Source: a virus. From it: 26,706 nt of DNA. Shown one piece after another: positions 12,779-24,873 of the stretch. Below the pieces are notes generated by a model. That model ran no database searches and was not told the origin of the DNA. It saw only the letters and a program-made list of their open reading frames with translations. Position 1 is the stretch's first letter. The number at the start of each line of letters is the position of its first letter. The stretch lies in UHGV virus genome UHGV-0147372; one strand, 5' to 3'. The position numbers and the translations under genes were made by a program.

Positions 12779-13396
12779 TTACCAGTTAAAAATTGATGAG
12801 CTGCGAATTGCAGGAACATCCGATGGATTTCGTTTAGCAGCTGGTTCCATCAACTTACGCTTGTTAAATGCCTGATCAATATAATACTCAGGATTTTTAA
12901 TAAAGACAGAGTATTTTACCAATGCACAATATACGTCAGAGTCATTATAATGGGGAACTGTTTTTTCATAAACATGATTCTTTCTAACCAGATAAGGCAA
13001 ATAATAATCATATCCCCAACCTGGCGTTCTTAGACTTATAGAACATCCGCATGATGGATCTGCACATACTGCAGGAGTAAACACACTGTCGTAAATTTCA
13101 TCTCTGATAACACCAATTAGACCATTATAGTTTTCTCCCCAGAGTGATGCTTGAATTTCAGAGTTTATAAATGGACGATTTTTGGTTTCCGTTCCAATAA
13201 GAACGACAGTAACCGTTGAGTCTTTTAAAAAATCCTCACGAATAGTCCTCATTATTGTTTCATCAGTGTTAGTTGTACTAATGTCACCATCACTTACCGA
13301 CTTATCAATAAACGATTCTCCTCCGAATAAATCAATAATCTCATCTTTGAGATCTTGTTCGTTAGCATGATGATAACTAAGAAACGTCTTATGCAT
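12779..13396 (-). CDS. TIR-like (ThsB/DUF1863-like) protein, candidate NAD-processing signalling enzyme
   Basis: 205 aa; N-terminus KTFLSYHHANEQD resembles the TIR beta-A strand (FISYxHxD); block TVTVVLIGTETKNRPFINSEI resembles the ThsB/TIR beta-C/alpha-C region with the catalytic Glu; AT-rich; identification from memory of motifs, not a search. Confidence 0.5.
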   Translation of the reverse strand: MHKTFLSYHHANEQDLKDEIIDLFGGESFIDKSVSDGDISTTNTDETIMRTIREDFLKDSTVTVVLIGTETKNRPFINSEIQASLWGENYNGLIGVIRDEIYDSVFTPAVCADPSCGCSISLRTPGWGYDYYLPYLVRKNHVYEKTVPHYNDSDVYCALVKYSVFIKNPEYYIDQAFNKRKLMEPAAKRNPSDVPAIRSSSIFNW

Positions 13397-14127
13397 TATT
13401 CACTCCATTTATCAACATTTATATCAAACTCTTTGACTACCTTATCATTGAAGAAATCGTTTACTTCTTTAAAACCTTCCAATACTTGACTAAAATGATA
13501 ATAATGCTTTTGTATAGTACTTATAGGGGTTAAATGATACGGCAGTGATATAAATTCGCCGTTAGGGTCTCTATCCTTTGTGGTCACTTTATCATTATCT
13601 GAAACATATTTATGCCATCTCCGATAATTATTTTGATGCTTTGTTAAAAAAGAGTTTAACGTTTTCAAAATTTCATTTGAAAGTAAATACAGTTTTTTAT
13701 CTCTTTTTTTCTTCACATCTAGTAATTTCATTTCATCTCTAATGAATTTATAGCACTCATAATATGAGTTTAAAACTTCTTCAATTGAGTCATAATTCGG
13801 ATCAAATTTAAATAATGTTCGCTTCGTATCCAGATAATTTTTTACGCTCTTTTTAAAAAGAAGATCAGACTTATTTAGTAAAATATTAATACCACCAAAA
13901 CTAAGTTGCTCCAATCTCAATGAATATCTTTGATGAAATGCACCGACCAGCAAGATATAAGCAACTAAAAATAGTATTAATACTGATAGAAAAGCACGAA
14001 TTATGCTTACATTTGACATGAAATTAACTATAAACCACCATTTTTCAAACGGTGAAAACGGAATGCACCCCATGATAATAAGTAGAAGAACAAAGATACA
14101 ACCCCATAAAACCCACAATCTGTACAT
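13396..14127 (-). CDS. Hypothetical membrane protein (2-3 N-terminal TM helices plus a roughly 170 aa Lys/Tyr-rich soluble domain); candidate effector
   Basis: ORF track begins at a TTG at 14172 that lies inside the predicted promoter; ATG at 14127 (MYRLWVLWG...) with AAGGA upstream is preferred; stop overlaps the TIR-like start by 1 nt. Confidence 0.6.
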   Translation of the reverse strand: MYRLWVLWGCIFVLLLIIMGCIPFSPFEKWWFIVNFMSNVSIIRAFLSVLILFLVAYILLVGAFHQRYSLRLEQLSFGGINILLNKSDLLFKKSVKNYLDTKRTLFKFDPNYDSIEEVLNSYYECYKFIRDEMKLLDVKKKRDKKLYLLSNEILKTLNSFLTKHQNNYRRWHKYVSDNDKVTTKDRDPNGEFISLPYHLTPISTIQKHYYHFSQVLEGFKEVNDFFNDKVVKEFDINVDKWSE

Positions 14128-14149
14128 AAGAAAGATCCTTTTTCTTTTT

Positions 14150-14177
14150 ATAATACTGCAACTACACCTCAAGTCAA
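14150..14177 (-). promoter_or_regulatory. Candidate sigma70 promoter for the membrane-protein/TIR-like operon
   Basis: Minus-strand TTGACT (14177..14172), 16 bp spacer, TATTAT (14155..14150); about 25-45 bp upstream of the ATG at 14127. Confidence 0.35.
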
Positions 14178-14279
14178 AACCCTCTTCTGATATTACCCTC
14201 TACTACAGTAACCCATCACATGACCTCCGACTTATCAGAAGACTAGCCAAACTTTCTCAATCAAATCAGGTTGCGCGCG

Positions 14280-14298
14280 CTCGTATCCCCGCCACGCC
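14280..14298 (-). other. Candidate cos cohesive-end sequence (GGCGTGGCGGGGATACGAG on the minus strand)
   Basis: 14 of 19 positions, and 12 of the first 13, match the P2 cohesive end GGCGAGGCGGGGAAAGCAC as recalled; orientation relative to Q matches P2; a GC-rich island in AT-rich surroundings; adjacent hairpin CCCGCCA-attc-TGGCGGG at 14349..14366. Confidence 0.4.
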
Positions 14299-14415
14299 TG
14301 CCCGCTTTATGTAGTAGTTTTCATGCAGGTGCATGATCTACGCGAAAGCCCGCCAATTCTGGCGGGCCCTAGCAAAAACGATCCTCAAACGATCATGCGA
14401 TCTCATGCAGCATAG

Positions 14416-15258
14416 TCATGCACGATCATTTGACTCAGCATCTGCTGCACGCTTGCTGCGCGAAGATGCACTTTTACTATCAATCTTTCGACAGTTCTTT
14501 CTATCCCTGGCTTCATTTTCTTTAAATTTGTTATATGTCTCAGTATCAAAAAACGAAATTGTTTCAACCTCATCTTTTGGTATGAGCACACGGAAATCTT
14601 CGATATTAAGCCGAGACATTCCACTTATCACACCACTATCAAGATAATGTTGGTGATAGTTAGTCGTGATACTAATCGTTAGATCATCTTTATCCCGATA
14701 TCCGCTTAACATCGGGAGAAGTTCAAGGTGCTCTGAAAGCCCGTTTTCTAACGCCGGACAAGTAACAAGACCAACATAGATTTTGCGAGACGACAGAGTT
14801 GCTATGATCGGAAACTGTCTTGCGGACGCTTCCATGAGTAATGATTCGAAAGCGTTATTACCCACAGCTTTAGCTAAGGCATCCCAGCGACGATCTCCAC
14901 GTGATGTGCGTAACTTATTTCCAAAACCTGAAATCGCAGCGAGGACAATTGAAATCATAACCCATGCTATCTGTTTGATTTCATTTATTCTTTGAAGTTT
15001 GTCTTTCGATGAAGACAACATGCCATTAAAACTGTCAGGTGTTAGATTCAAGGCATTAGCCAGCCAACGAAACCCTCCGCTGACGTTCAAAATAAAGGTG
15101 AAAAAACCGCCAAGGAGAAAAAAAACGATACCCCAGGCAGCCACAAAAAAATAAGCGTCCCAGCCGTTGGAACGCTTATATCGGTATCTTGTTGAAAGTG
15201 ATAGGTTTACATAAATAAAACCACTAACCAAAATCACTGCTAAAAGTAATGTTGCCAT
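14416..15258 (-). CDS. Hypothetical membrane protein (three predicted N-terminal TM helices plus soluble C-terminal domain)
   Basis: 280 aa ORF; hydrophobic segments at about aa 3-20, 35-56 and 100-118; start overlaps the stop of the upstream 71 aa gene by 1 nt. Confidence 0.6.
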   Translation of the reverse strand: MATLLLAVILVSGFIYVNLSLSTRYRYKRSNGWDAYFFVAAWGIVFFLLGGFFTFILNVSGGFRWLANALNLTPDSFNGMLSSSKDKLQRINEIKQIAWVMISIVLAAISGFGNKLRTSRGDRRWDALAKAVGNNAFESLLMEASARQFPIIATLSSRKIYVGLVTCPALENGLSEHLELLPMLSGYRDKDDLTISITTNYHQHYLDSGVISGMSRLNIEDFRVLIPKDEVETISFFDTETYNKFKENEARDRKNCRKIDSKSASSRSKRAADAESNDRA

Positions 15259-15473
15259 TATCTGGTTCTATTAGTTTTCTCTTTTACAGTGCTCGTTTTG
15301 ATGCCTTCAAGCTTATCCATCTGTGCCTTGATGGCATCCATTGCTCTTTTGTTAGACAAGTCTACGGACACAAAACCATCTTTACTAAGATTGAGTTTGT
15401 CCTGGTTCTCTTTAAGAACCCTTGCCAGACGTTCAACTGGGTTACCCAGGCTAAATGCGGCGATGCTTGACAT
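15258..15473 (-). CDS. Hypothetical small protein (71 aa), first gene of a two-gene accessory operon
   Basis: ATG at 15473 preceded by a strong SD (GGGGGAG) 3-4 nt upstream; translationally coupled to the 280 aa membrane protein. Confidence 0.55.
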   Translation of the reverse strand: MSSIAAFSLGNPVERLARVLKENQDKLNLSKDGFVSVDLSNKRAMDAIKAQMDKLEGIKTSTVKEKTNRTR

Positions 15474-15743
15474 AACTCCCCCTTTTCACATGGCGCGGAA
15501 GTCTACACTCCGACGCCTACAACCTCAACAGATTATCTTTAAAATTTAGACAACAATATCATCTGTTGATTGCGTTACTTAAACTTAAGTTCAATGCGCT
15601 CGATCATGCAAGCTGTTTCTTAAGAACTGTTAATTTCCTGGCATATATAGTGGTTAAGGTAACAAATTGACACTAACGCCTCGCATAGCTCGTTGTTCAA
15701 CCTTGCTGACGCCAGAAGCAAGTTCAGACGCCAGCAACGTTTC

Positions 15744-15977
15744 TTAATGCAGCCAGCTGTCGTCTTCCCACACCTTCTGCATAATTTTCATCACTTGTTT
15801 TCTTTCTTCGTCCAGTTGCAATCCGGTCAGTTCCACACCGTTAGAGCTACCTTTGCGGATACGAATTACCGTTTTGGGATACAGAGGACGCAGATTGCGG
15901 TAAAGCTCGGATTCAAGGGCGTCCAGGGTAGACTGGCTAATCTTCTGCTCTTTATCGATCATTATTTCAATGCGCAT
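15744..15977 (-). CDS. DinI-like protein (186 Tum C-terminal-domain-like; candidate SOS-induced antirepressor or RecA modulator)
   Basis: 77 aa MRIEIMIDKEQKISQSTLDALESEL...QKVWEDDSWL aligns with E. coli DinI (MRIEVTIAK...LPAGAIDALAGEL...ETWESADDWF) as recalled; downstream of a LexA box. Confidence 0.75.
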   Translation of the reverse strand: MRIEIMIDKEQKISQSTLDALESELYRNLRPLYPKTVIRIRKGSSNGVELTGLQLDEERKQVMKIMQKVWEDDSWLH

Positions 15978-15988
15978 AAAAAGTCACC

Positions 15989-16177
15989 TCAACTGATGAC
16001 ATCCATTGAGCGGTTGTATTCGTGTGTTCTGATTTTTGCCATGAGTTCATCTGTTAGTTCAGAAACCCACTGCAAAGCCAGCCCCTTCTCTTCATCACTA
16101 CACTCACTAGCCGCTACAAGCTTAAGAAAAAAATCAATGCGCTGGAGCTTCAAAGACTCCAAAAAATAGTCCTGCAT
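15989..16177 (-). CDS. Hypothetical protein (62 aa), first gene of the LexA-boxed operon
   Basis: ATG at 16177 with AGGAGG 4-5 nt upstream; 11 nt gap and different frame from the DinI-like gene, which has its own GGTGA SD. Confidence 0.5.
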   Translation of the reverse strand: MQDYFLESLKLQRIDFFLKLVAASECSDEEKGLALQWVSELTDELMAKIRTHEYNRSMDVIS

Positions 16178-16201
16178 CTTTCCTCCTATGACACCAAAGC
16201 A

Positions 16202-16237
16202 ATACTGTAAATATAACCACTGTTTATATTTACAGTA
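16202..16237. promoter_or_regulatory. LexA operator: canonical SOS box CTGTTTATATTTACAG (16220..16235) within a longer dyad, overlapping a second half-matching box CTGTAAATATAACCAC
   Basis: CTGT-N8-ACAG read directly; inverted repeat ATACTGTAAATATA / TATATTTACAGTAT flanking it; sits 43-60 bp upstream of the 62 aa gene start, overlapping likely -10 elements. Confidence 0.65.
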
Positions 16238-16250
16238 TATAATAATCTTA

Positions 16251-16281
16251 CTGATGTAAAACGTTTTTTTACGTTCATCAG
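16251..16281 (-). terminator. Candidate hairpin terminator after gene A (CTGATG...CATCAG around an AAAACGTTTT core)
   Basis: Inverted repeat read directly, located between the A stop and the LexA box; stem imperfect, so weak. Confidence 0.25.
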
Positions 16282-16329
16282 CCTGATATGCCTGGTATTA
16301 TTAAGAGCACGAATTGTTAACCCGCGTAA

Positions 16330-18702
16330 TTAATACAGGTTTCGCCACTTATCATCTTCCTGCAAACGCTGGTTCCGATAGAAGATACGCAGGCCTGCTC
16401 CTGACGGAATACTGCCGCCGCGAAGGAGTAAATCGACCTCTTTCTCGCTACCATCAAATCCTCTGGACTTCAGCTCATAGACGAGCTGCTGTCGCTGATG
16501 GTCTGTAATTCGCTGTTTGTAGTCTTTACGCCGTTTCGGTTTAACCAGGCGTAACCTTGCTGCCAGTTCCCGGCGCTCTTTTTTGCTCATACTGTGCAGG
16601 TAATCGTGCAACTGCTTGTCATCCATGCGGGTAATGTCCGTTCTGGTGCCCCCATCAGCTGATTTATCTTTCTCCTGTTGGTTCAAATTTTCAGCAAGGG
16701 GACAGTTATTGCCACGAGTCCAAGGGGCGCAAGCGCCCTGGTCGGCTGCCGCCTCCTGAACGTCAACGGCCTTACGAACCATTTTCCACTTCACGGCATG
16801 AGTGCAGATCTTGCCCTCTGCAATAGGTGACCAGATGCCATAAATACGAATGCCGTGATCGCCATAGGCGGTCGGCTCTTCGTTGATTTCATAAGCAGTT
16901 CTGATGAGGTGATATTTGCGGGGAACCAGTACGCCACCCTGCTTCATGATGTAGGTGGCAAAACAACCAGCATCAGCAGCAGCCAGAATGGCATCAAGGC
17001 GCGGGTTATCCAGTACCGGCGCACCTGCTTTTTTGTCCCCCTGTTGCCTTGCCGCCTGACCAGCCAGCAATCGCAGTTCACGGTAAGCCTGACGCCCCGG
17101 AATGCCAAAGAAGCGGAATTGCTGAACACGATGCAGAGACGCCCAAGCATTAACGTATTCAGCATTATCACGCAGGGATTTCCCCGTTTCCTTGCTGATC
17201 TCGCCAGCCAGACCACGCCCGTCAATGTTCTTACTGATGTATTTCGCGATGTAGCTTGTTGGCGTACCTTTGCGCGGGTTAATCAACTCAGACTTAAAGC
17301 GCGGCCCAGTGTTATTGCCCAGCTCCTCGCGGTCTTCACGGATGGCAAACTTACGCAGTAATGCAGTGATGGTGCGGCGGTCTTTTTTGCGCATAAAACA
17401 CAACAGGTGCCAGTGAACTGTACCGTCATGATGCGGCTCAGCCACCCGCACGCCATACCACCGCAATCCGGCTTTGTGCATCGCCTTACGAAATGCAGCA
17501 AACATGCCGACCAGATAATCACTGCTTTGTCTTACCGTCGCATTTGTCCAGGTTGGGTTGGGCCTGCCGTTATTTAGCGTGGAATGGAAACGTGACGGAC
17601 AGGTGATGGTGTAGAAAACGGCGCAGTCACCGCGCATTTCCGCGATAAGCTCCAGACCTTTAACACAGGCCATCATCTCATTGCGGCGATGCGCAGGGTT
17701 GCTGCTGCTGGCGTTTACCACATCCTCCATGTCCAGCGTGTCGCCGTCTTCGTTCACCAGTTCATGAGAACGGAAAAACTCCAGCGACTTACGGCGCTGC
17801 TCACGTTTATGCATCACGGCTTCATAGCTGACATAGGGAGATGCTTTTTTGCTGACCAGGCAAACAGCACGCAACTGCTCTTCCCGCCATTCGCAACGCA
17901 TCTTCCATAATTTCCGGTACCACCAGTCGGCGCACAACATACGCGCCAGCGAACCCGGAATGAGTTCATAGGGCACGGGTTTACGGCGGTTTCTTTTCCG
18001 GCGGAGTTGCTCAAACGCAGGCGGTATGACATCCAGTCGCAGGGTTTCTGCTGCCACCTTTTCCCATGTCTTGCGGATTTCTTCTGGCTTAACGTCATCG
18101 GTGGCATACAAATCGCCACAAGCTGCATCAAGGCACATGCTCATATGCGCAGCAACAAGGGTGGACAGGCGTTTCACCTGATCCTGACTCATTTCAGGCA
18201 GAATCAGCAGGCCGTCCAGCCCTTCATGGCTTGCCATAAAGCGAAAAGAAGTGGATAGCTGACTGTCGCGCACATGCTCCAGCCGTTCCAGACATGGCTT
18301 AATCGTCTCACGCAAATAGCGGGAATAAGCCTTTGGCCTGCCAAGGCTGCTGAAGTATTCAATACGTTGCATCAGCGGCTTGCTGATATGGGAAGGCTGG
18401 GCATTGACGTCCGCCAGAATGACCATATCTGGATTAAAACGCTGCTGCTCATGCGCCAGCTTTGCCCGACTAATGAGCTTATCCTGCTCCATTTCGCGCT
18501 GGACAGGATCACGGGATTCATTAAAGAAATAACGCTCCCAGACCTGATCACTCAGTACCTCGCGGCGCAGGTGTTCCTGCTCGTTATCGGCAGCGTACAG
18601 AGCGATCAGGTTTGAAAGCGCAGAAACTGAAGATTGCTCTTCTGTCTCTACGTAAGGATTGATTGCTTTTTTCTCAGCATTCCAGGAATAGCTGTAGTTC
18701 AT
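16330..18702 (-). CDS. A: Replication initiation endonuclease gpA (rolling-circle initiator)
   Basis: 790 aa; P2/186 gene A size class and position at the end of the early operon. Confidence 0.88.
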
Positions 18703-22272: not shown

Positions 22273-23214
22273 ATGTCAACTAATAAAATCACATTTCGCC
22301 ATATTGAAGATCATCTGAAAGCCATGGTCATGCAGAATCGAGGAGGGCAAAAAGTCATTGAGAGAATACTCATGGCCTATGGTTTCAAATCACGCCAAGC
22401 ATTCTGTAACCACCTTGGTATTTCACAAAGTACAATGGCTAACAGATATGCACGCGATACCTTCCCTGCTGATTGGGTTGTTATATGTTCAATGGAAACT
22501 GGCGCATCAATCGAATGGTTAGCATTTGGTTTAGATGCTGAAGAAGGAGTGCCAGCTCCTTCGCCAGAACGGCATGCTGAAAAACAGTCTGCAGATGAAT
22601 TTTGCAATGAAGTTCACACCCCCACGATAAAGTTCGATAATGAAAACCACATGGATTTCACTCGAGGGGGTAAAGCAGCAATAGAGCGAATTGTTAAGGC
22701 TTACGGTTACAAAACGCGCCAAGCCTTAGCCGATCACCTTGGTATCTCAAAAAGCACATTAGCTACACGATACATGCGAGACATTTTTCCGGCAGACTGG
22801 ATCATCCAATGCTGTTTAGAAACAGGAGTGTCTCTCGAGTGGTTATCTTTTGGTAAGGGGCATTCCAATCAAACAAAGCTAAGTGGGTTGCTTACATTAG
22901 ACTGCTATGATCTACGTGACGGCAAACTTACTGATCAAAGAGAATTAATCGTTTCGAGCGAAATTTTACCTCAAAATTTAAAACATCCCTATATAGTTAA
23001 TTCCGCAAATGATTCATATATCATTAGCAAAGAGGAGTATCTTAGCGATGGTCTATGGTTAGTATCTATTAACGGAGAATTTACTTTTAGAGACATATTT
23101 AAACTTCCAAACAATCGCATCCGCGTTGAAAACACAAAATATAGCTTTGAATGCGATAAAGAAGATTTGGAATTTAATAATAAAGTTAAAGGAATAATTA
23201 GAAAAAGGGTTTAA
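22273..23214 (+). CDS. cI: CI-type immunity repressor with tandemly duplicated N-terminal DNA-binding domain
   Basis: 313 aa; two roughly 60 aa copies (KVIERILMAYGFKSRQAFCNHLGISQSTMANRYARDTFPADWVVICSMETGASIEWLAFG and AAIERIVKAYGYKTRQALADHLGISKSTLATRYMRDIFPADWIIQCCLETGVSLEWLSFG) resembling the 186 CI N-terminal domain, then a C-terminal domain. Confidence 0.75.
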   Translation: MSTNKITFRHIEDHLKAMVMQNRGGQKVIERILMAYGFKSRQAFCNHLGISQSTMANRYARDTFPADWVVICSMETGASIEWLAFGLDAEEGVPAPSPERHAEKQSADEFCNEVHTPTIKFDNENHMDFTRGGKAAIERIVKAYGYKTRQALADHLGISKSTLATRYMRDIFPADWIIQCCLETGVSLEWLSFGKGHSNQTKLSGLLTLDCYDLRDGKLTDQRELIVSSEILPQNLKHPYIVNSANDSYIISKEEYLSDGLWLVSINGEFTFRDIFKLPNNRIRVENTKYSFECDKEDLEFNNKVKGIIRKRV

Positions 23215-23216
23215 CA

Positions 23217-24266
23217 ATGAGCTTTACGAAAACTATTGAATTTGCAAACTATACCTTAAATTTTGGAGAGGACAAAGTTCTCTTAGATGCTTTTGATTGC
23301 ATTGTTTTTCCTTCATTTTTCGCACAAAAATACGTTAGAAAATTTAAAGATACAGAATATTTCTTTACTGACACAAAAATTATTACGTTAGATACTACAG
23401 ATTCAGATTTTATTGGTCCTATAGTTCCAACAATTGCATTGTGTGGCCGCATTATAAAAAAGACCATATTTAAACGAGATCAAATATTTCAAGATGGTCA
23501 ATTAATTCGAGATCACAGGACGCTAGAAAGTCACCCCAGCTCTATTTTTATTCTTATGCTTAATGAGCACAGATTAATGCTTTGCAAAGAGGTTTCTGGA
23601 GCCCCTACCCTAGAAGAATTTGAAAATACTAGCAAGTATTGCCTTGCACAGCGATATAATTCTTTTGTGGATTACGAAGTAAAAAAAAATAAAAGAATTA
23701 GAAAGAAAAAATCATACATTGATCGACTGTATAAAAAAGATATTTATCGTAAACTAGGAGCCCCCAAATTACGGGTTACCCCCTTAACAGACCCAAGATC
23801 ATTGAGCAATTTTGTTGAACTCTTTTCTGTTGTTAATAGATTATCAATTGAGTTATTGCCAACAAATAGTGAAAATATATCTCTTGATGGCTTCTGGAGG
23901 AAAATTGAACAAGAAAAAGAAGAACTTAATAGTAGTAAAGCTCAATTAGTATACACAAATAAAAATGAAGATGGTTTAAATTCTGAGGCCGTCATTCAAA
24001 AAACAACAAGTGCAACCCGAATGGCCAACTCTAAAGTAATTATAAGTGGTAAAGATGAACACGGAGCAAGGCTATCAGGGAATAATGATAGTTTTACTCT
24101 AAAAGCATCAAGGCCACAACTTAGTTCTGATTTGGAAAGAGCTGCTCAAGAGGCGTATTCTGCATTCACAGAATTAAAGGATGCAGGAAATATTATCATT
24201 CCAGAACGTGAAGATTATACTAAAATTTTTTCCAAGTTAACATCAATAATTTCTAGGTGGCTATAG
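23217..24266 (+). CDS. Hypothetical cytoplasmic protein (349 aa), AT-rich, co-transcribed with cI; RexA-like by position only
   Basis: Starts 2 nt after the cI stop; no recognisable motif; Lys/Asn-rich AT-biased composition. Confidence 0.6.
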   Translation: MSFTKTIEFANYTLNFGEDKVLLDAFDCIVFPSFFAQKYVRKFKDTEYFFTDTKIITLDTTDSDFIGPIVPTIALCGRIIKKTIFKRDQIFQDGQLIRDHRTLESHPSSIFILMLNEHRLMLCKEVSGAPTLEEFENTSKYCLAQRYNSFVDYEVKKNKRIRKKKSYIDRLYKKDIYRKLGAPKLRVTPLTDPRSLSNFVELFSVVNRLSIELLPTNSENISLDGFWRKIEQEKEELNSSKAQLVYTNKNEDGLNSEAVIQKTTSATRMANSKVIISGKDEHGARLSGNNDSFTLKASRPQLSSDLERAAQEAYSAFTELKDAGNIIIPEREDYTKIFSKLTSIISRWL

Positions 24267-24267
24267 T

Positions 24268-24873
24268 ATGAAATATACATTCAACCCAGAAGATCTGACC
24301 AAAGAGCGATCTTTGCATGATGTTTACAAATTAACTAAAAAAATAAAGGTCAATTCATTTGACTTTTATTTCACATTATTATTAGTGATATTATTATCTA
24401 TTAATGCTTTTTGTCTATCTTCATCACCAGAGTTAATTTCATCTATTAGACAATGGACACCTTTAGTATTCGGATTCACTACAACAACATTAGGTTTTTT
24501 AATTACTGGATTTACAATATTTGCAACCATAAATAAACCTGAACTTTTCCTTTCATTAATGGAGTATAAGCATCCATTATACGGGATAAGTTACTTAAAA
24601 TATGTTTATGGCGTATTTATGAGAGTATTTATATATTTCATATTTTGGTCTGTTATCTATCTTTTAGTCCTTCTTTTCGGGCAAGAAAATGGATTGGCTA
24701 CAAAATTACTCAGAGCCTTAATGTTTTCTCATTGCACTAAAGTTGTTGGAGTTCAAATACTATATATACTCGTAGGAAGCAGTGCAGTGTTCCTTGTATT
24801 AACTTTAAAAACTTTCCTGTTCAATATTTATGCTATGTTAATGCAATCTCTACGCTGGGAAGTAGAAAGATAA
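24268..24873 (+). CDS. Hypothetical polytopic membrane protein (201 aa, about 4-5 TM); RexB-like by architecture only
   Basis: Starts 1 nt after the stop of the upstream gene; several 20-residue hydrophobic segments. Confidence 0.62.
   Translation: MKYTFNPEDLTKERSLHDVYKLTKKIKVNSFDFYFTLLLVILLSINAFCLSSSPELISSIRQWTPLVFGFTTTTLGFLITGFTIFATINKPELFLSLMEYKHPLYGISYLKYVYGVFMRVFIYFIFWSVIYLLVLLFGQENGLATKLLRALMFSHCTKVVGVQILYILVGSSAVFLVLTLKTFLFNIYAMLMQSLRWEVER

What the first reader, a model, noticed from the sequence alone, without database searches (positions are those of the whole stretch)
15744..16237. LexA-boxed operon encoding a 62 aa protein and a DinI-like protein: 186 Tum-type SOS induction module
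A canonical SOS box CTGTTTATATTTACAG sits within a larger dyad, overlapping the likely promoter 43-60 bp upstream of a two-gene minus-strand operon whose second product is DinI-like. In phage 186 the LexA-controlled tum gene encodes an antirepressor with a DinI-like C-terminal domain. Here the DinI-like domain is a separate ORF in a different frame from the 62 aa ORF (11 nt gap), so the Tum function may be split across two polypeptides or altered.
Basis: partly seen in the sequence, partly recalled or inferred. Interest (0 to 1): 0.45.

Follow-up and report, generated by a model that had tools for sequence, protein, structure and literature searches.

The report
Split Tum antirepressor module, LexA-controlled
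This is the ordinary, already described DNA-damage switch of a P2/186-like prophage: a LexA-repressed promoter drives a small antirepressor (TumA) and a separate DinI-like protein (TumB), the same layout as in phages Fels-2, PSP3 and the E. coli HS prophage.

Summary
A perfect LexA box (16220-16235) overlaps a 186-p95-like promoter. It lies 43-58 nt upstream of a 62-aa ORF (15989-16177, minus strand), followed after 11 nt by a 77-aa DinI-family ORF (15744-15977).

The DinI ORF aligns to 186 Tum residues 71-145 (41% identity). The 62-aa ORF is a remote homologue of the Tum N-terminal domain (hhalign probability 96.3%, E 1.8e-9).

The split is not a frameshift or an altered Tum. It is the common, published tumA/tumB arrangement. 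PSP3 is annotated this way, and Lemire et al. 2011 state that Fels-2 and PSP3 carry a split tum whose upstream half is the antirepressor.

The 62-aa protein is 98% identical to Fels-2 STM2728 and to E. coli HS ECHS_RS04495. In-frame deletion of the latter ("tum") abolishes mitomycin induction (Phollow paper, 2025). The module occurs in 1125 of 5426 complete E. coli genomes.

Verdict: a real, functional, already known feature of low interest. Two side points: databases still call TumA "hypothetical", and an identical TumA is paired with very divergent CI repressors.

The parts
16255..16260 (-). -35 hexamer TTTACA of the putative tum promoter
   Evidence: Read from the sequence. It is 17 nt upstream of TACTGT, the same layout as the annotated 186 p95 promoter (TTCACA / TACTGT). 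Assigned by analogy; the consensus scanner did not call it.
16232..16237 (-). -10 hexamer TACTGT, overlapping the left half of LexA box 1
   Evidence: Identical hexamer and identical overlap with the LexA site as the annotated -10 of 186 p95. Inferred, not mapped.
16220..16235 (-). LexA box 1, CTGTAAATATAAACAG (perfect CTGT-N8-ACAG)
   Evidence: Only match in the window. Kept in 154 of 161 close loci and present upstream of TumA genes in distant loci.
16205..16220 (-). Possible second, imperfect LexA box GTGGTTATATTTACAG, sharing one base with box 1
   Evidence: In 154 related loci the outer GTGG and ACAG are almost invariant, while the central 4 nt are the most variable positions of the whole promoter region. 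LexA binding is not shown.
16182..16187 (-). Ribosome-binding site AGGAGG of tumA
   Evidence: Sequence, 4 nt before the ATG. Invariant in relatives.
15989..16177 (-). tumA: 62-aa antirepressor candidate, homologue of the N-terminal domain of 186 Tum
   Evidence: hhalign probability 96.3%, E 1.8e-9 against the Tum-N family. phrog_698, which the 186 Tum N-domain also hits. 98% identical to Fels-2 STM2728 and to E. coli HS ECHS_RS04495, the gene called tum there. Purifying selection. AlphaFold2 helical hairpin, pLDDT 90.7.
15985..15990 (-). Ribosome-binding site GAGGTG of tumB, overlapping the tumA stop codon TGA (15989-15991)
   Evidence: Sequence. A weak hairpin at 15983-16000 spans the stop codon and this site. 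It is kept in Fels-2 but not in a 52%-identical relative.
15744..15977 (-). tumB: 77-aa DinI-like protein
   Evidence: Pfam DinI, E 6.6e-23. 41% identical to 186 Tum 71-145, 100% to Fels-2 and 78% to PSP3 TumB. Matches E. coli DinI, PDB 1GHH, E 1.4e-5.
15699..15741 (-). Strong GC-rich hairpin just after the tumB stop, with no U-tract; possible partial terminator or transcript stabiliser
   Evidence: RNA fold of 15640-15760(-) gives -38.6 kcal/mol, z -2.4. Same position as the partial terminator t95a after 186 tum. Function inferred.
22273..23214 (+). Presumed target: 186-type CI repressor, 313 aa, with a duplicated N-terminal helix-turn-helix domain
   Evidence: Pfam Phage_CI_repr (two stretches) plus Phage_CI_C. 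33% identical to 186 CI. Its role as TumA target is inferred from 186.

Best explanation
This is the SOS-induction module of a P2/186-like (Peduoviridae, Fels-2-like) prophage, in the split tumA/tumB form.

**In the lysogen.** LexA sits on box 1, and possibly on the abutting weak box 2. Box 1 overlaps the -10 hexamer of a promoter just downstream of replication gene A, so the operon is shut off.

**After DNA damage.** RecA-stimulated LexA self-cleavage opens the promoter, and a bicistronic mRNA is made.

**TumA.** The first product is a 62-aa two-helix hairpin. It is the antirepressor: it binds the 186-type CI repressor and stops it holding the lytic promoter, so the prophage enters lytic growth. 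Binding most likely involves the conserved N-terminal DNA-binding domain of CI.

**TumB.** The second product is a 77-aa DinI-like protein that is not needed for antirepression. By analogy with DinI, and with the C-terminal products of 186 tum, it binds RecA filaments and tunes the SOS signal.

**Shown here:** the sequence anatomy, the homologies and the conservation.
**Shown by others for a 98%-identical gene:** the requirement for induction and the dependence on LexA.
**Inferred:** CI binding by this TumA, RecA binding by TumB, the transcription start and a role for box 2.
For: - **Anatomy:**
- **TumB:** it is a DinI-family protein and matches the C-terminal half of Tum.
- **TumA:** it is homologous to the N-terminal domain of Tum.
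- **186-type switch in the window:** CI, CII (CP76) and Fil are all present.
- **Literature:** Fels-2 and PSP3 have a split tum, and in PSP3 the upstream gene carries the antirepressor activity (PMC3121763).
- **Experiment in E. coli HS:** the deleted 'tum' is locus ECHS_RS04495. The deletion primers fuse exactly the ATG and TGA of the ORF62 homologue and leave the DinI gene intact. The protein is 98% identical to ORF62. Both the tum deletion and lexA(Ind-) abolish mitomycin-induced lysis.
- **TumA works without a DinI partner:** 80 of 80 loci of a distant TumA subgroup have no DinI within 2.5 kb, and 69 of the 77 where TumA could be located keep a LexA-like box. Single loci agree.
- **Evolutionary rates:** TumB is conserved (78% to PSP3) while TumA diverges fast (13% to PSP3), as expected for a host-directed protein and a repressor-directed protein.
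- **CI partners:** the TumA type tracks the CI N-terminal domain type.
Against: - No experiment was done on this prophage.
- Its CI (313 aa, double helix-turn-helix) is only 36-49% identical to the CIs of Fels-2 and E. coli HS. Sensitivity of this CI to TumA is therefore extrapolated.
- The consensus promoter scanner found no sigma-70 promoter here. The -10 TACTGT matches TATAAT at only 3 of 6 positions, although the annotated 186 p95 -10 is the same hexamer.
- BLASTP alone does not link ORF62 to Tum.
- TumB scores far below NCBIfam's DinI equivalog cut-off, 42.7 against 111 bits. It is DinI-like, not a dinI orthologue, and its RecA binding is untested.
Confidence: 0.85

Rival explanations
1. 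The two ORFs are a frameshifted, decaying or mis-sequenced 186-type tum gene, so the module is a pseudogene.
For: 186 Tum is a single 146-aa protein. 73 of the 80 closest 186-type loci in IMG/VR are fused. The two ORFs here are in different frames.
Against: - Each ORF has its own ribosome-binding site and ATG.
- The DinI frame is closed by a TGA two codons before its ATG, so no frameshift before the tumA stop could produce a fusion (read from the sequence).
- The split is intact in 165 of 165 related loci, with 25 synonymous against 7 non-synonymous codon variants.
- It is kept at 52% protein identity.
- The gap length varies (3 nt in PSP3, 10 or 11 nt here), as expected for independent cistrons.
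- The homologue in E. coli HS is functional.
Confidence: 0.01
2. The module is intact and LexA-controlled, but in this prophage it does not cause induction because the unusual double-HTH 313-aa CI is not a TumA target. The operon would then serve only as an SOS-inducible DinI-like modulator, or act in trans on other P2-like prophages.
For: The window CI differs strongly from the CIs of the two phages in which this TumA type is linked to induction (36% to Fels-2, 49% to E. coli HS). It also has an extra N-terminal domain.
Against: - Both HTH copies of the window CI keep the motif shared by all CIs paired with this TumA. The best HSPs, which start at the second HTH copy, are 36% identical to Fels-2 CI and 49% to HS CI; the first copy is 57-61% identical to the Fels-2 and HS N-terminal domains.
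- Identical TumA proteins sit next to CIs of 152-318 aa in 70 phage contigs, including 11 other double-HTH CIs. Pairing with divergent CIs is therefore the rule.
Confidence: 0.1
3. The DinI-like protein is the real inducer, and the 62-aa protein is an accessory factor or has an unrelated function.
For: Only the DinI-like ORF has a database family. ORF62 has no Pfam, NCBIfam or PADLOC hit. The 186 record names all Tum products 'RecA filament binding protein DinI'.
Against: - The E. coli HS deletion removed only the ORF62 homologue and abolished induction.
- Many P2-like phages keep a LexA-boxed TumA with no DinI gene.
- PSP3 antirepressor activity maps to the upstream gene (PMC3121763).
Confidence: 0.03

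Closest known systems
E. coli HS prophage DuoHS tum (ECHS_RS04495) plus DinI-like gene (ECHS_RS04500); Salmonella Fels-2 STM2728 plus STM2726.1
   Same: Same position after gene A. Same promoter and the same pair of LexA boxes. TumA is 98% identical; TumB is 100% identical to the Fels-2 protein. The genes are separate with a 10-nt gap. Deleting tum in HS blocks SOS induction.
   Different: The gap is 11 nt instead of 10 (one extra T). The centre of box 2 differs. The CI repressor is a different immunity type (36-49% identical, duplicated HTH domain). The cargo genes downstream differ.
Phage PSP3 tumA / tumB
   Same: Two separate genes after gene A behind a LexA box, annotated as the 5' and 3' halves of 186 tum. 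TumB is 78% identical. The PSP3 CI also has a duplicated HTH domain.
   Different: PSP3 TumA is a different subtype: 13% identical, phrog_1993 against phrog_698, linked only by weak HMM cross-hits. The gap is 3 nt and in frame, and there is a single LexA box.
Coliphage 186 Tum (146 aa, p95 SOS operon)
   Same: LexA box overlapping a TACTGT -10 downstream of gene A. An N-terminal antirepressor domain homologous to TumA and a C-terminal DinI-like domain homologous to TumB. The 186 record also lists a 76-aa C-terminal product from an internal GTG start, the counterpart of TumB.
   Different: The two domains are fused through a linker of about 25 aa. There is one LexA box. orf97 follows in the operon. 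The N-domain is only about 20% identical to TumA.
Gifsy-1/Gifsy-2 dinI-gfoA / dinI-gftA operons (Salmonella)
   Same: A LexA-repressed prophage operon that pairs a DinI homologue with a small antirepressor acting on a non-cleavable repressor (PMC3121763).
   Different: The gene order is reversed (dinI first). The antirepressors and repressors are unrelated to TumA and to 186-type CI, according to that paper. The phages are lambdoid, not P2-like.
E. coli chromosomal DinI (PDB 1GHH)
   Same: Same Pfam family, same length class and same acidic C-terminal W-E-D/E motif. Also LexA-controlled (LexA control of dinI is from general knowledge).
   Different: TumB falls below the NCBIfam equivalog cut-off (42.7 against 111 bits). 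It is phage-borne and co-transcribed with an antirepressor.

Membership tests
186 Tum-type antirepressor (TumA / Tum N-terminal domain) | Sequence homology to the N-terminal domain of 186 Tum | tested here: met
   hhalign probability 96.3%, E 1.8e-9 over residues 2-44. The 186 Tum N-domain hits phrog_698, the ORF62 family, at 5.9e-6. Plain BLASTP finds nothing.
186 Tum-type antirepressor (TumA / Tum N-terminal domain) | Gene lies immediately downstream of replication gene A, behind a promoter overlapped by a LexA box | tested here: met
   gpA is at 16330-18702. The box at 16220-16235 overlaps TACTGT. The layout matches the 186 annotation and is conserved in relatives.
186 Tum-type antirepressor (TumA / Tum N-terminal domain) | Resident prophage uses a 186-type CI repressor that is not the lambda-type self-cleaving repressor | tested here: met
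   Pfam Phage_CI_repr plus Phage_CI_C, CII CP76 and Fil. 33% identical to 186 CI. Absence of self-cleavage was not tested.
186 Tum-type antirepressor (TumA / Tum N-terminal domain) | Required for SOS induction of the prophage | not testable with these tools
   Shown for the 98%-identical E. coli HS gene (PMC12055606), not for this prophage.
186 Tum-type antirepressor (TumA / Tum N-terminal domain) | Binds CI and prevents operator binding | not testable with these tools
   Known only for 186 Tum (Shearwin et al. 1998, as cited in PMC3121763). Here there is only indirect support: the TumA type tracks the CI N-terminal domain type.
DinI family (PF06183) | Matches the family model above the curated threshold | tested here: met
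   81.3 bits against a cut-off of 24.2, covering the full model 1-63.
DinI family (PF06183) | Orthologue (equivalog) of chromosomal DinI | tested here: not met
   NCBIfam NF007893 scores 42.7 bits against a cut-off of 111. TumB is DinI-like, not dinI itself.
DinI family (PF06183) | Binds RecA filaments and modulates co-protease activity | not testable with these tools
   Inferred from the family. The 186 record notes that the C-terminal products 'modulate SOS induction'.
Split tumA/tumB arrangement (PSP3 / Fels-2 type) | Antirepressor and DinI-like halves are separate, adjacent cistrons in this order | tested here: met
   11-nt gap, separate ribosome-binding site and ATG for each gene. The same layout is found in Fels-2, E. 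coli HS and PSP3.

The most novel reading that the evidence does not exclude
TumA of this type may act as a 'master key'. One 100%-identical 61-aa protein is found next to CI repressors that differ greatly. CI length ranges from 152 to 318 aa, identity to the window CI from 34 to 100%, and the C-terminal domains share a median of only 32%. Both single- and double-HTH forms occur. The N-terminal DNA-binding domains, in contrast, stay at a median of 77% identity. If TumA recognises that conserved domain, a single SOS-induced TumA could induce many heteroimmune P2-like prophages in trans. The duplicated HTH domain of the CI in this window might then be a decoy or a way to change the dose response.
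Probability: 0.35. Interest if true: 0.4.

Novelty: already known. Interest (0 to 1): 0.15.

Why it matters
The module explains how this prophage senses DNA damage without a self-cleaving repressor, but that mechanism is established.

The practical value is for annotation. TumA has no Pfam or NCBIfam model and is 'unknown function' in PHROGs. RefSeq labels it 'hypothetical protein' in about a fifth of complete E. coli genomes (1125 of 5426, including BL21- and DH5alpha-labelled assemblies). Yet it is the gene that decides whether these prophages are SOS-inducible.

The comparison also shows that the antirepressor occurs in three forms: alone, next to a DinI gene, or fused to one. 186 Tum is therefore best read as a gene fusion.

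Tried and rejected
- **BLASTP** of ORF62 against 186 Tum found nothing. Profile methods were needed to see the homology.
- **PDB searches** with the TumA family profile and a Foldseek search of the AlphaFold model gave no significant match, only generic helical hairpins.
- **Rfam** on 15300-16500 gave one chance-level hit.
- **The promoter scanner** found no sigma-70 site. It does not weigh against a promoter, because the annotated 186 p95 -10 is the same weak hexamer.
- **PADLOC** has no model for either tum gene.
- **The search for related loci** with the full TumA alignment failed because the alignment was too diverse. A sub-alignment worked.
- **Bunny et al. 2002** (PMC151935), the primary source for the Fels-2 split tum, is not held. 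It is cited only through Lemire et al. 2011.
- **A search for papers using 'tumA' and 'tumB'** found none.
- **Frameshift fusion** of the two ORFs was considered and rejected. There is an in-frame TGA two codons upstream of the tumB ATG, and the gap length varies among relatives.
- **The long 13-nt-arm dyad** was considered as a separate operator or hairpin and rejected. It is not conserved and comes from two abutting LexA-like boxes.
- **A heterology index** for the boxes was not computed, because the published matrix was not available here.

Full report
**What is in the sequence**

The window is a P2/186-like (Peduoviridae) prophage. About 80% of it matches Klebsiella phage 4LV2017 at 96% identity. 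About 70% matches E. coli phage vB_EcoM-813R9. The 801-bp region around the finding is 99.9% identical to an E. coli chromosome.

On the minus strand the order is as follows:
- Replication gene A, 16330-18702 (Pfam Phage_GPA, E 1e-127).
- A 152-nt spacer.
- A 62-aa ORF, 15989-16177, with AGGAGG 4 nt before the ATG.
- An 11-nt gap.
- A 77-aa ORF, 15744-15977, with GAGGTG overlapping the upstream stop codon. This ORF is a DinI-family protein (PF06183, E 6.6e-23).

The spacer holds TTTACA, then 17 nt, then TACTGT. The TACTGT overlaps a perfect CTGT-N8-ACAG at 16220-16235. This box is the only one in the window, against 0.36 expected by chance.

**Is it more than chance?**

One box in 26.7 kb is not significant on its own, but its conservation is.
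- The perfect box is kept in 154 of 161 closely related phage contigs.
- In eight divergent TumA loci (the window, Fels-2, PSP3, 186 and four metagenomic or genomic loci), seven have a perfect box 23-59 nt upstream of the start codon. The eighth has a one-mismatch box.
- In a further, distant subgroup, 69 of 77 loci have a LexA-like box.

The arrangement of the -35, the -10 (TACTGT) and the box is the one annotated for promoter p95 of phage 186. The scanner's failure to call a promoter reflects the weak -10, which 186 shares.

The 'larger dyad' is box 1 abutting a second, imperfect box, GTGGTTATATTTACAG (16205-16220). In relatives the central four bases of box 2 are the most variable positions in the region, while GTGG and ACAG are nearly invariant. 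This pattern fits a weak second LexA site and does not fit a conserved long hairpin. LexA binding to box 2 is not shown.

The 62-aa ORF is a real gene. In 165 loci there are 41 nucleotide alleles but only 9 proteins. Codon variants are 25 synonymous against 7 non-synonymous, and 26 of 35 changes fall at third positions.

**What the two proteins are**

The 77-aa protein (TumB):
- 41% identical to residues 71-145 of 186 Tum.
- 100% identical to the Fels-2 DinI-family protein and 78% to PSP3 TumB.
- Matches E. coli DinI, PDB 1GHH, at E 1.4e-5.
- Scores below NCBIfam's DinI equivalog cut-off, so it is DinI-like rather than dinI.

The 62-aa protein (TumB's upstream partner, TumA):
- It has no Pfam, NCBIfam or PADLOC family, and BLASTP does not link it to Tum.
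- Its family is large: 484 clusters at 90% identity and 66 at 50%, all short proteins across Enterobacterales.
- A profile of this family aligns to a profile of the 186 Tum N-terminal domain with probability 96.3%, E 1.8e-9, residues 2-44 on 2-44.
- PHROGs agrees independently. ORF62 is phrog_698. The 186 Tum N-domain hits phrog_698 (5.9e-6), phrog_8554 and phrog_1993. PSP3 TumA is phrog_1993. All are labelled 'unknown function'.
- AlphaFold2 predicts a two-helix hairpin (helices 4-22 and 27-60, pLDDT 90.7). It has no specific structural relative in the PDB.

**It is the known split tum**

- The PSP3 GenBank record annotates tumA ('similar to 5' end 186 tum; UV induction of prophage') and tumB ('similar to dinI and 3' end of 186 tum') in exactly this position.
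- Lemire, Figueroa-Bossi and Bossi (2011, PMC3121763) describe 186 Tum as an antirepressor fused to a DinI sequence. [quoted passage not shown] - ORF62 is 98% identical to Fels-2 STM2728.
- ORF62 is also 98% identical (60 of 61) to ECHS_RS04495 of the E. coli HS prophage DuoHS. That gene has the same promoter, the same boxes and the same downstream DinI-like gene.

The Phollow paper (PMC12055606) calls ECHS_RS04495 'tum'. Its deletion primers (GTGGTGTCATAGGAGGAAAGATG-TGA-GGTGACTTTTATGCGCATTG) fuse the ATG and the TGA of precisely this 62-aa ORF. The DinI gene is left untouched. Both the tum deletion and lexA(Ind-) abolish mitomycin-induced lysis and virion foci.

The module is present in 1125 of 5426 complete E. 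coli genomes. It is annotated there as 'DinI-like family protein | hypothetical protein | replication endonuclease'.

**Frameshift and fusion question**

The split is not an error or a decaying gene.
- It is intact in 165 of 165 loci.
- The gap is 10 nt in 162 loci and 11 nt in 3, including this window's variant. In PSP3 the gap is 3 nt. There is therefore no fixed frame relation between the two genes.
- The tumB frame has a TGA two codons before its ATG, which rules out a frameshift fusion.
- The same layout, with an 11-nt gap, is kept in a relative whose TumA is only 52% identical.

**Three architectures**

1. **TumA alone behind a LexA box.** In a distant subgroup, 80 of 80 loci have no DinI within 2.5 kb. 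Single loci of 186-type and other TumA proteins also lack a DinI gene.
2. **TumA plus a separate TumB.** This is the form in the window. At least 561-585 IMG/VR loci have it.
3. **Fused.** This is the 186 form: 73 of the 80 closest 186-type loci encode the 146-aa protein.

The 186 record also lists a 76-aa C-terminal product from an internal GTG start that 'modulates SOS induction'. It is the functional counterpart of TumB.

Together this supports TumA as the autonomous antirepressor unit and the DinI-like part as an add-on. 186 Tum is best read as a gene fusion. This is an inference from distribution.

**Mechanism**

The shown, borrowed and inferred steps are these:
1. LexA is thought to repress the promoter. 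The anatomy and its conservation are shown here; LexA dependence is shown in E. coli HS.
2. DNA damage leads to LexA cleavage and transcription of tumA-tumB.
3. TumA is thought to inactivate the 186-type CI. CI binding is known biochemically only for 186 Tum, and the requirement for induction is shown in HS.
4. TumB is thought to act on RecA filaments to tune the SOS signal (family inference).

A strong hairpin without a U-tract follows tumB (15699-15741), at the position of the partial terminator t95a of 186.

**CI partners (side result)**

The window CI is 313 aa with two helix-turn-helix domains plus the CI C-terminal domain. It is only 36% identical to Fels-2 CI and 49% to E. coli HS CI. 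PSP3 CI is also duplicated.

Eighty IMG/VR contigs encode a TumA 100% identical to the window's. In 70 of them a CI gene lies within reach, and these CIs are very diverse:
- Length ranges from 152 to 318 aa.
- Identity to the window CI ranges from 34 to 100%.
- Among the single-HTH forms, the N-terminal domains are a median 77% identical (minimum 60%). The C-terminal domains are a median 32% identical (minimum 21%).
- The 186 and PSP3 CI N-terminal domains, which go with other TumA types, differ more from this group in the direct alignments: 186 CI is 30-33% identical overall to the Fels-2 and window CIs.

This fits TumA recognising the CI DNA-binding domain. It also suggests cross-induction between heteroimmune prophages. 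It remains correlative and rests on only three TumA types.

**Verdict**

The feature is already known and very common, so interest is low. The residual uncertainty is whether this particular double-HTH CI responds to TumA.

Noticed in passing
window 22273-23214 (+): The CI repressor is 313 aa and carries two tandem copies of the Phage_CI_repr helix-turn-helix domain before the CI C-terminal domain. 186 CI has 192 aa and Fels-2 CI 210 aa, each with one copy. PSP3 CI (286 aa) and about a dozen IMG/VR relatives are also duplicated.
   Followed up: partly
L175-L254 (IMG/VR loci around TumA) compared with window 22273-23214: A 100%-identical TumA is paired with CI repressors of many immunity types. 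CI N-terminal domains are a median 77% identical and C-terminal domains a median 32%. This suggests one antirepressor serves many repressors.
   Followed up: partly
window 12779-15473 (-): The variable cargo 'hotspot' between tumB and the portal gene holds four ORFs. They are a ThsB-like TIR protein (12779-13396; Pfam ThsB_TIR 1.5e-14, PADLOC ThsB 3.4e-12), an adjacent 258-aa ORF with no family, and an overlapping pair. The pair is a 71-aa ORF (phrog_9843) and a 280-aa ORF of unknown function whose N-terminal half looks hydrophobic by eye (phrog_3630). Relatives carry other cargo here, such as a retron in 4LV2017 and a methylase or GAPS4 in others.
   Followed up: partly
window 15474-15743 (-): No promoter-like site was found between tumB and the 71-aa/280-aa cargo pair on the same strand. 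Only a U-less hairpin follows tumB. As with orf97 in the 186 SOS operon, the cargo might be transcribed by read-through and so be SOS-inducible.
   Followed up: no
window 23217-24873 (+): Two ORFs (349 aa and 201 aa) lie between cI and the integrase gene. They have no Pfam or PADLOC family. The 349-aa ORF is also present in phage 4LV2017 as 'hypothetical protein'.
   Followed up: no
proteins P0267, P0272, P0275, P0284, P0289, P0292, P0297, P0301 (distant TumA relatives); loci L257-L265: Many distant TumA homologues end in a conserved glycine-rich tail...K(N/S)PQxGGxxSGGxxLQ, which the window protein lacks. Its role is unknown.
   Followed up: no
window 15983-16000 (-): A weak hairpin (GTCATC...GGTGAC) spans the tumA stop codon and the tumB ribosome-binding site and is followed by T5. 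It may couple tumB translation to tumA termination. It is kept in Fels-2 and E. coli HS but not in a 52%-identical relative.
   Followed up: partly
(E. coli genomes): The same tumA-tumB module, and hence a P2-like prophage or remnant, is present in laboratory strain assemblies labelled BL21 and DH5alpha. RefSeq annotates tumA as 'hypothetical protein' throughout.
   Followed up: no
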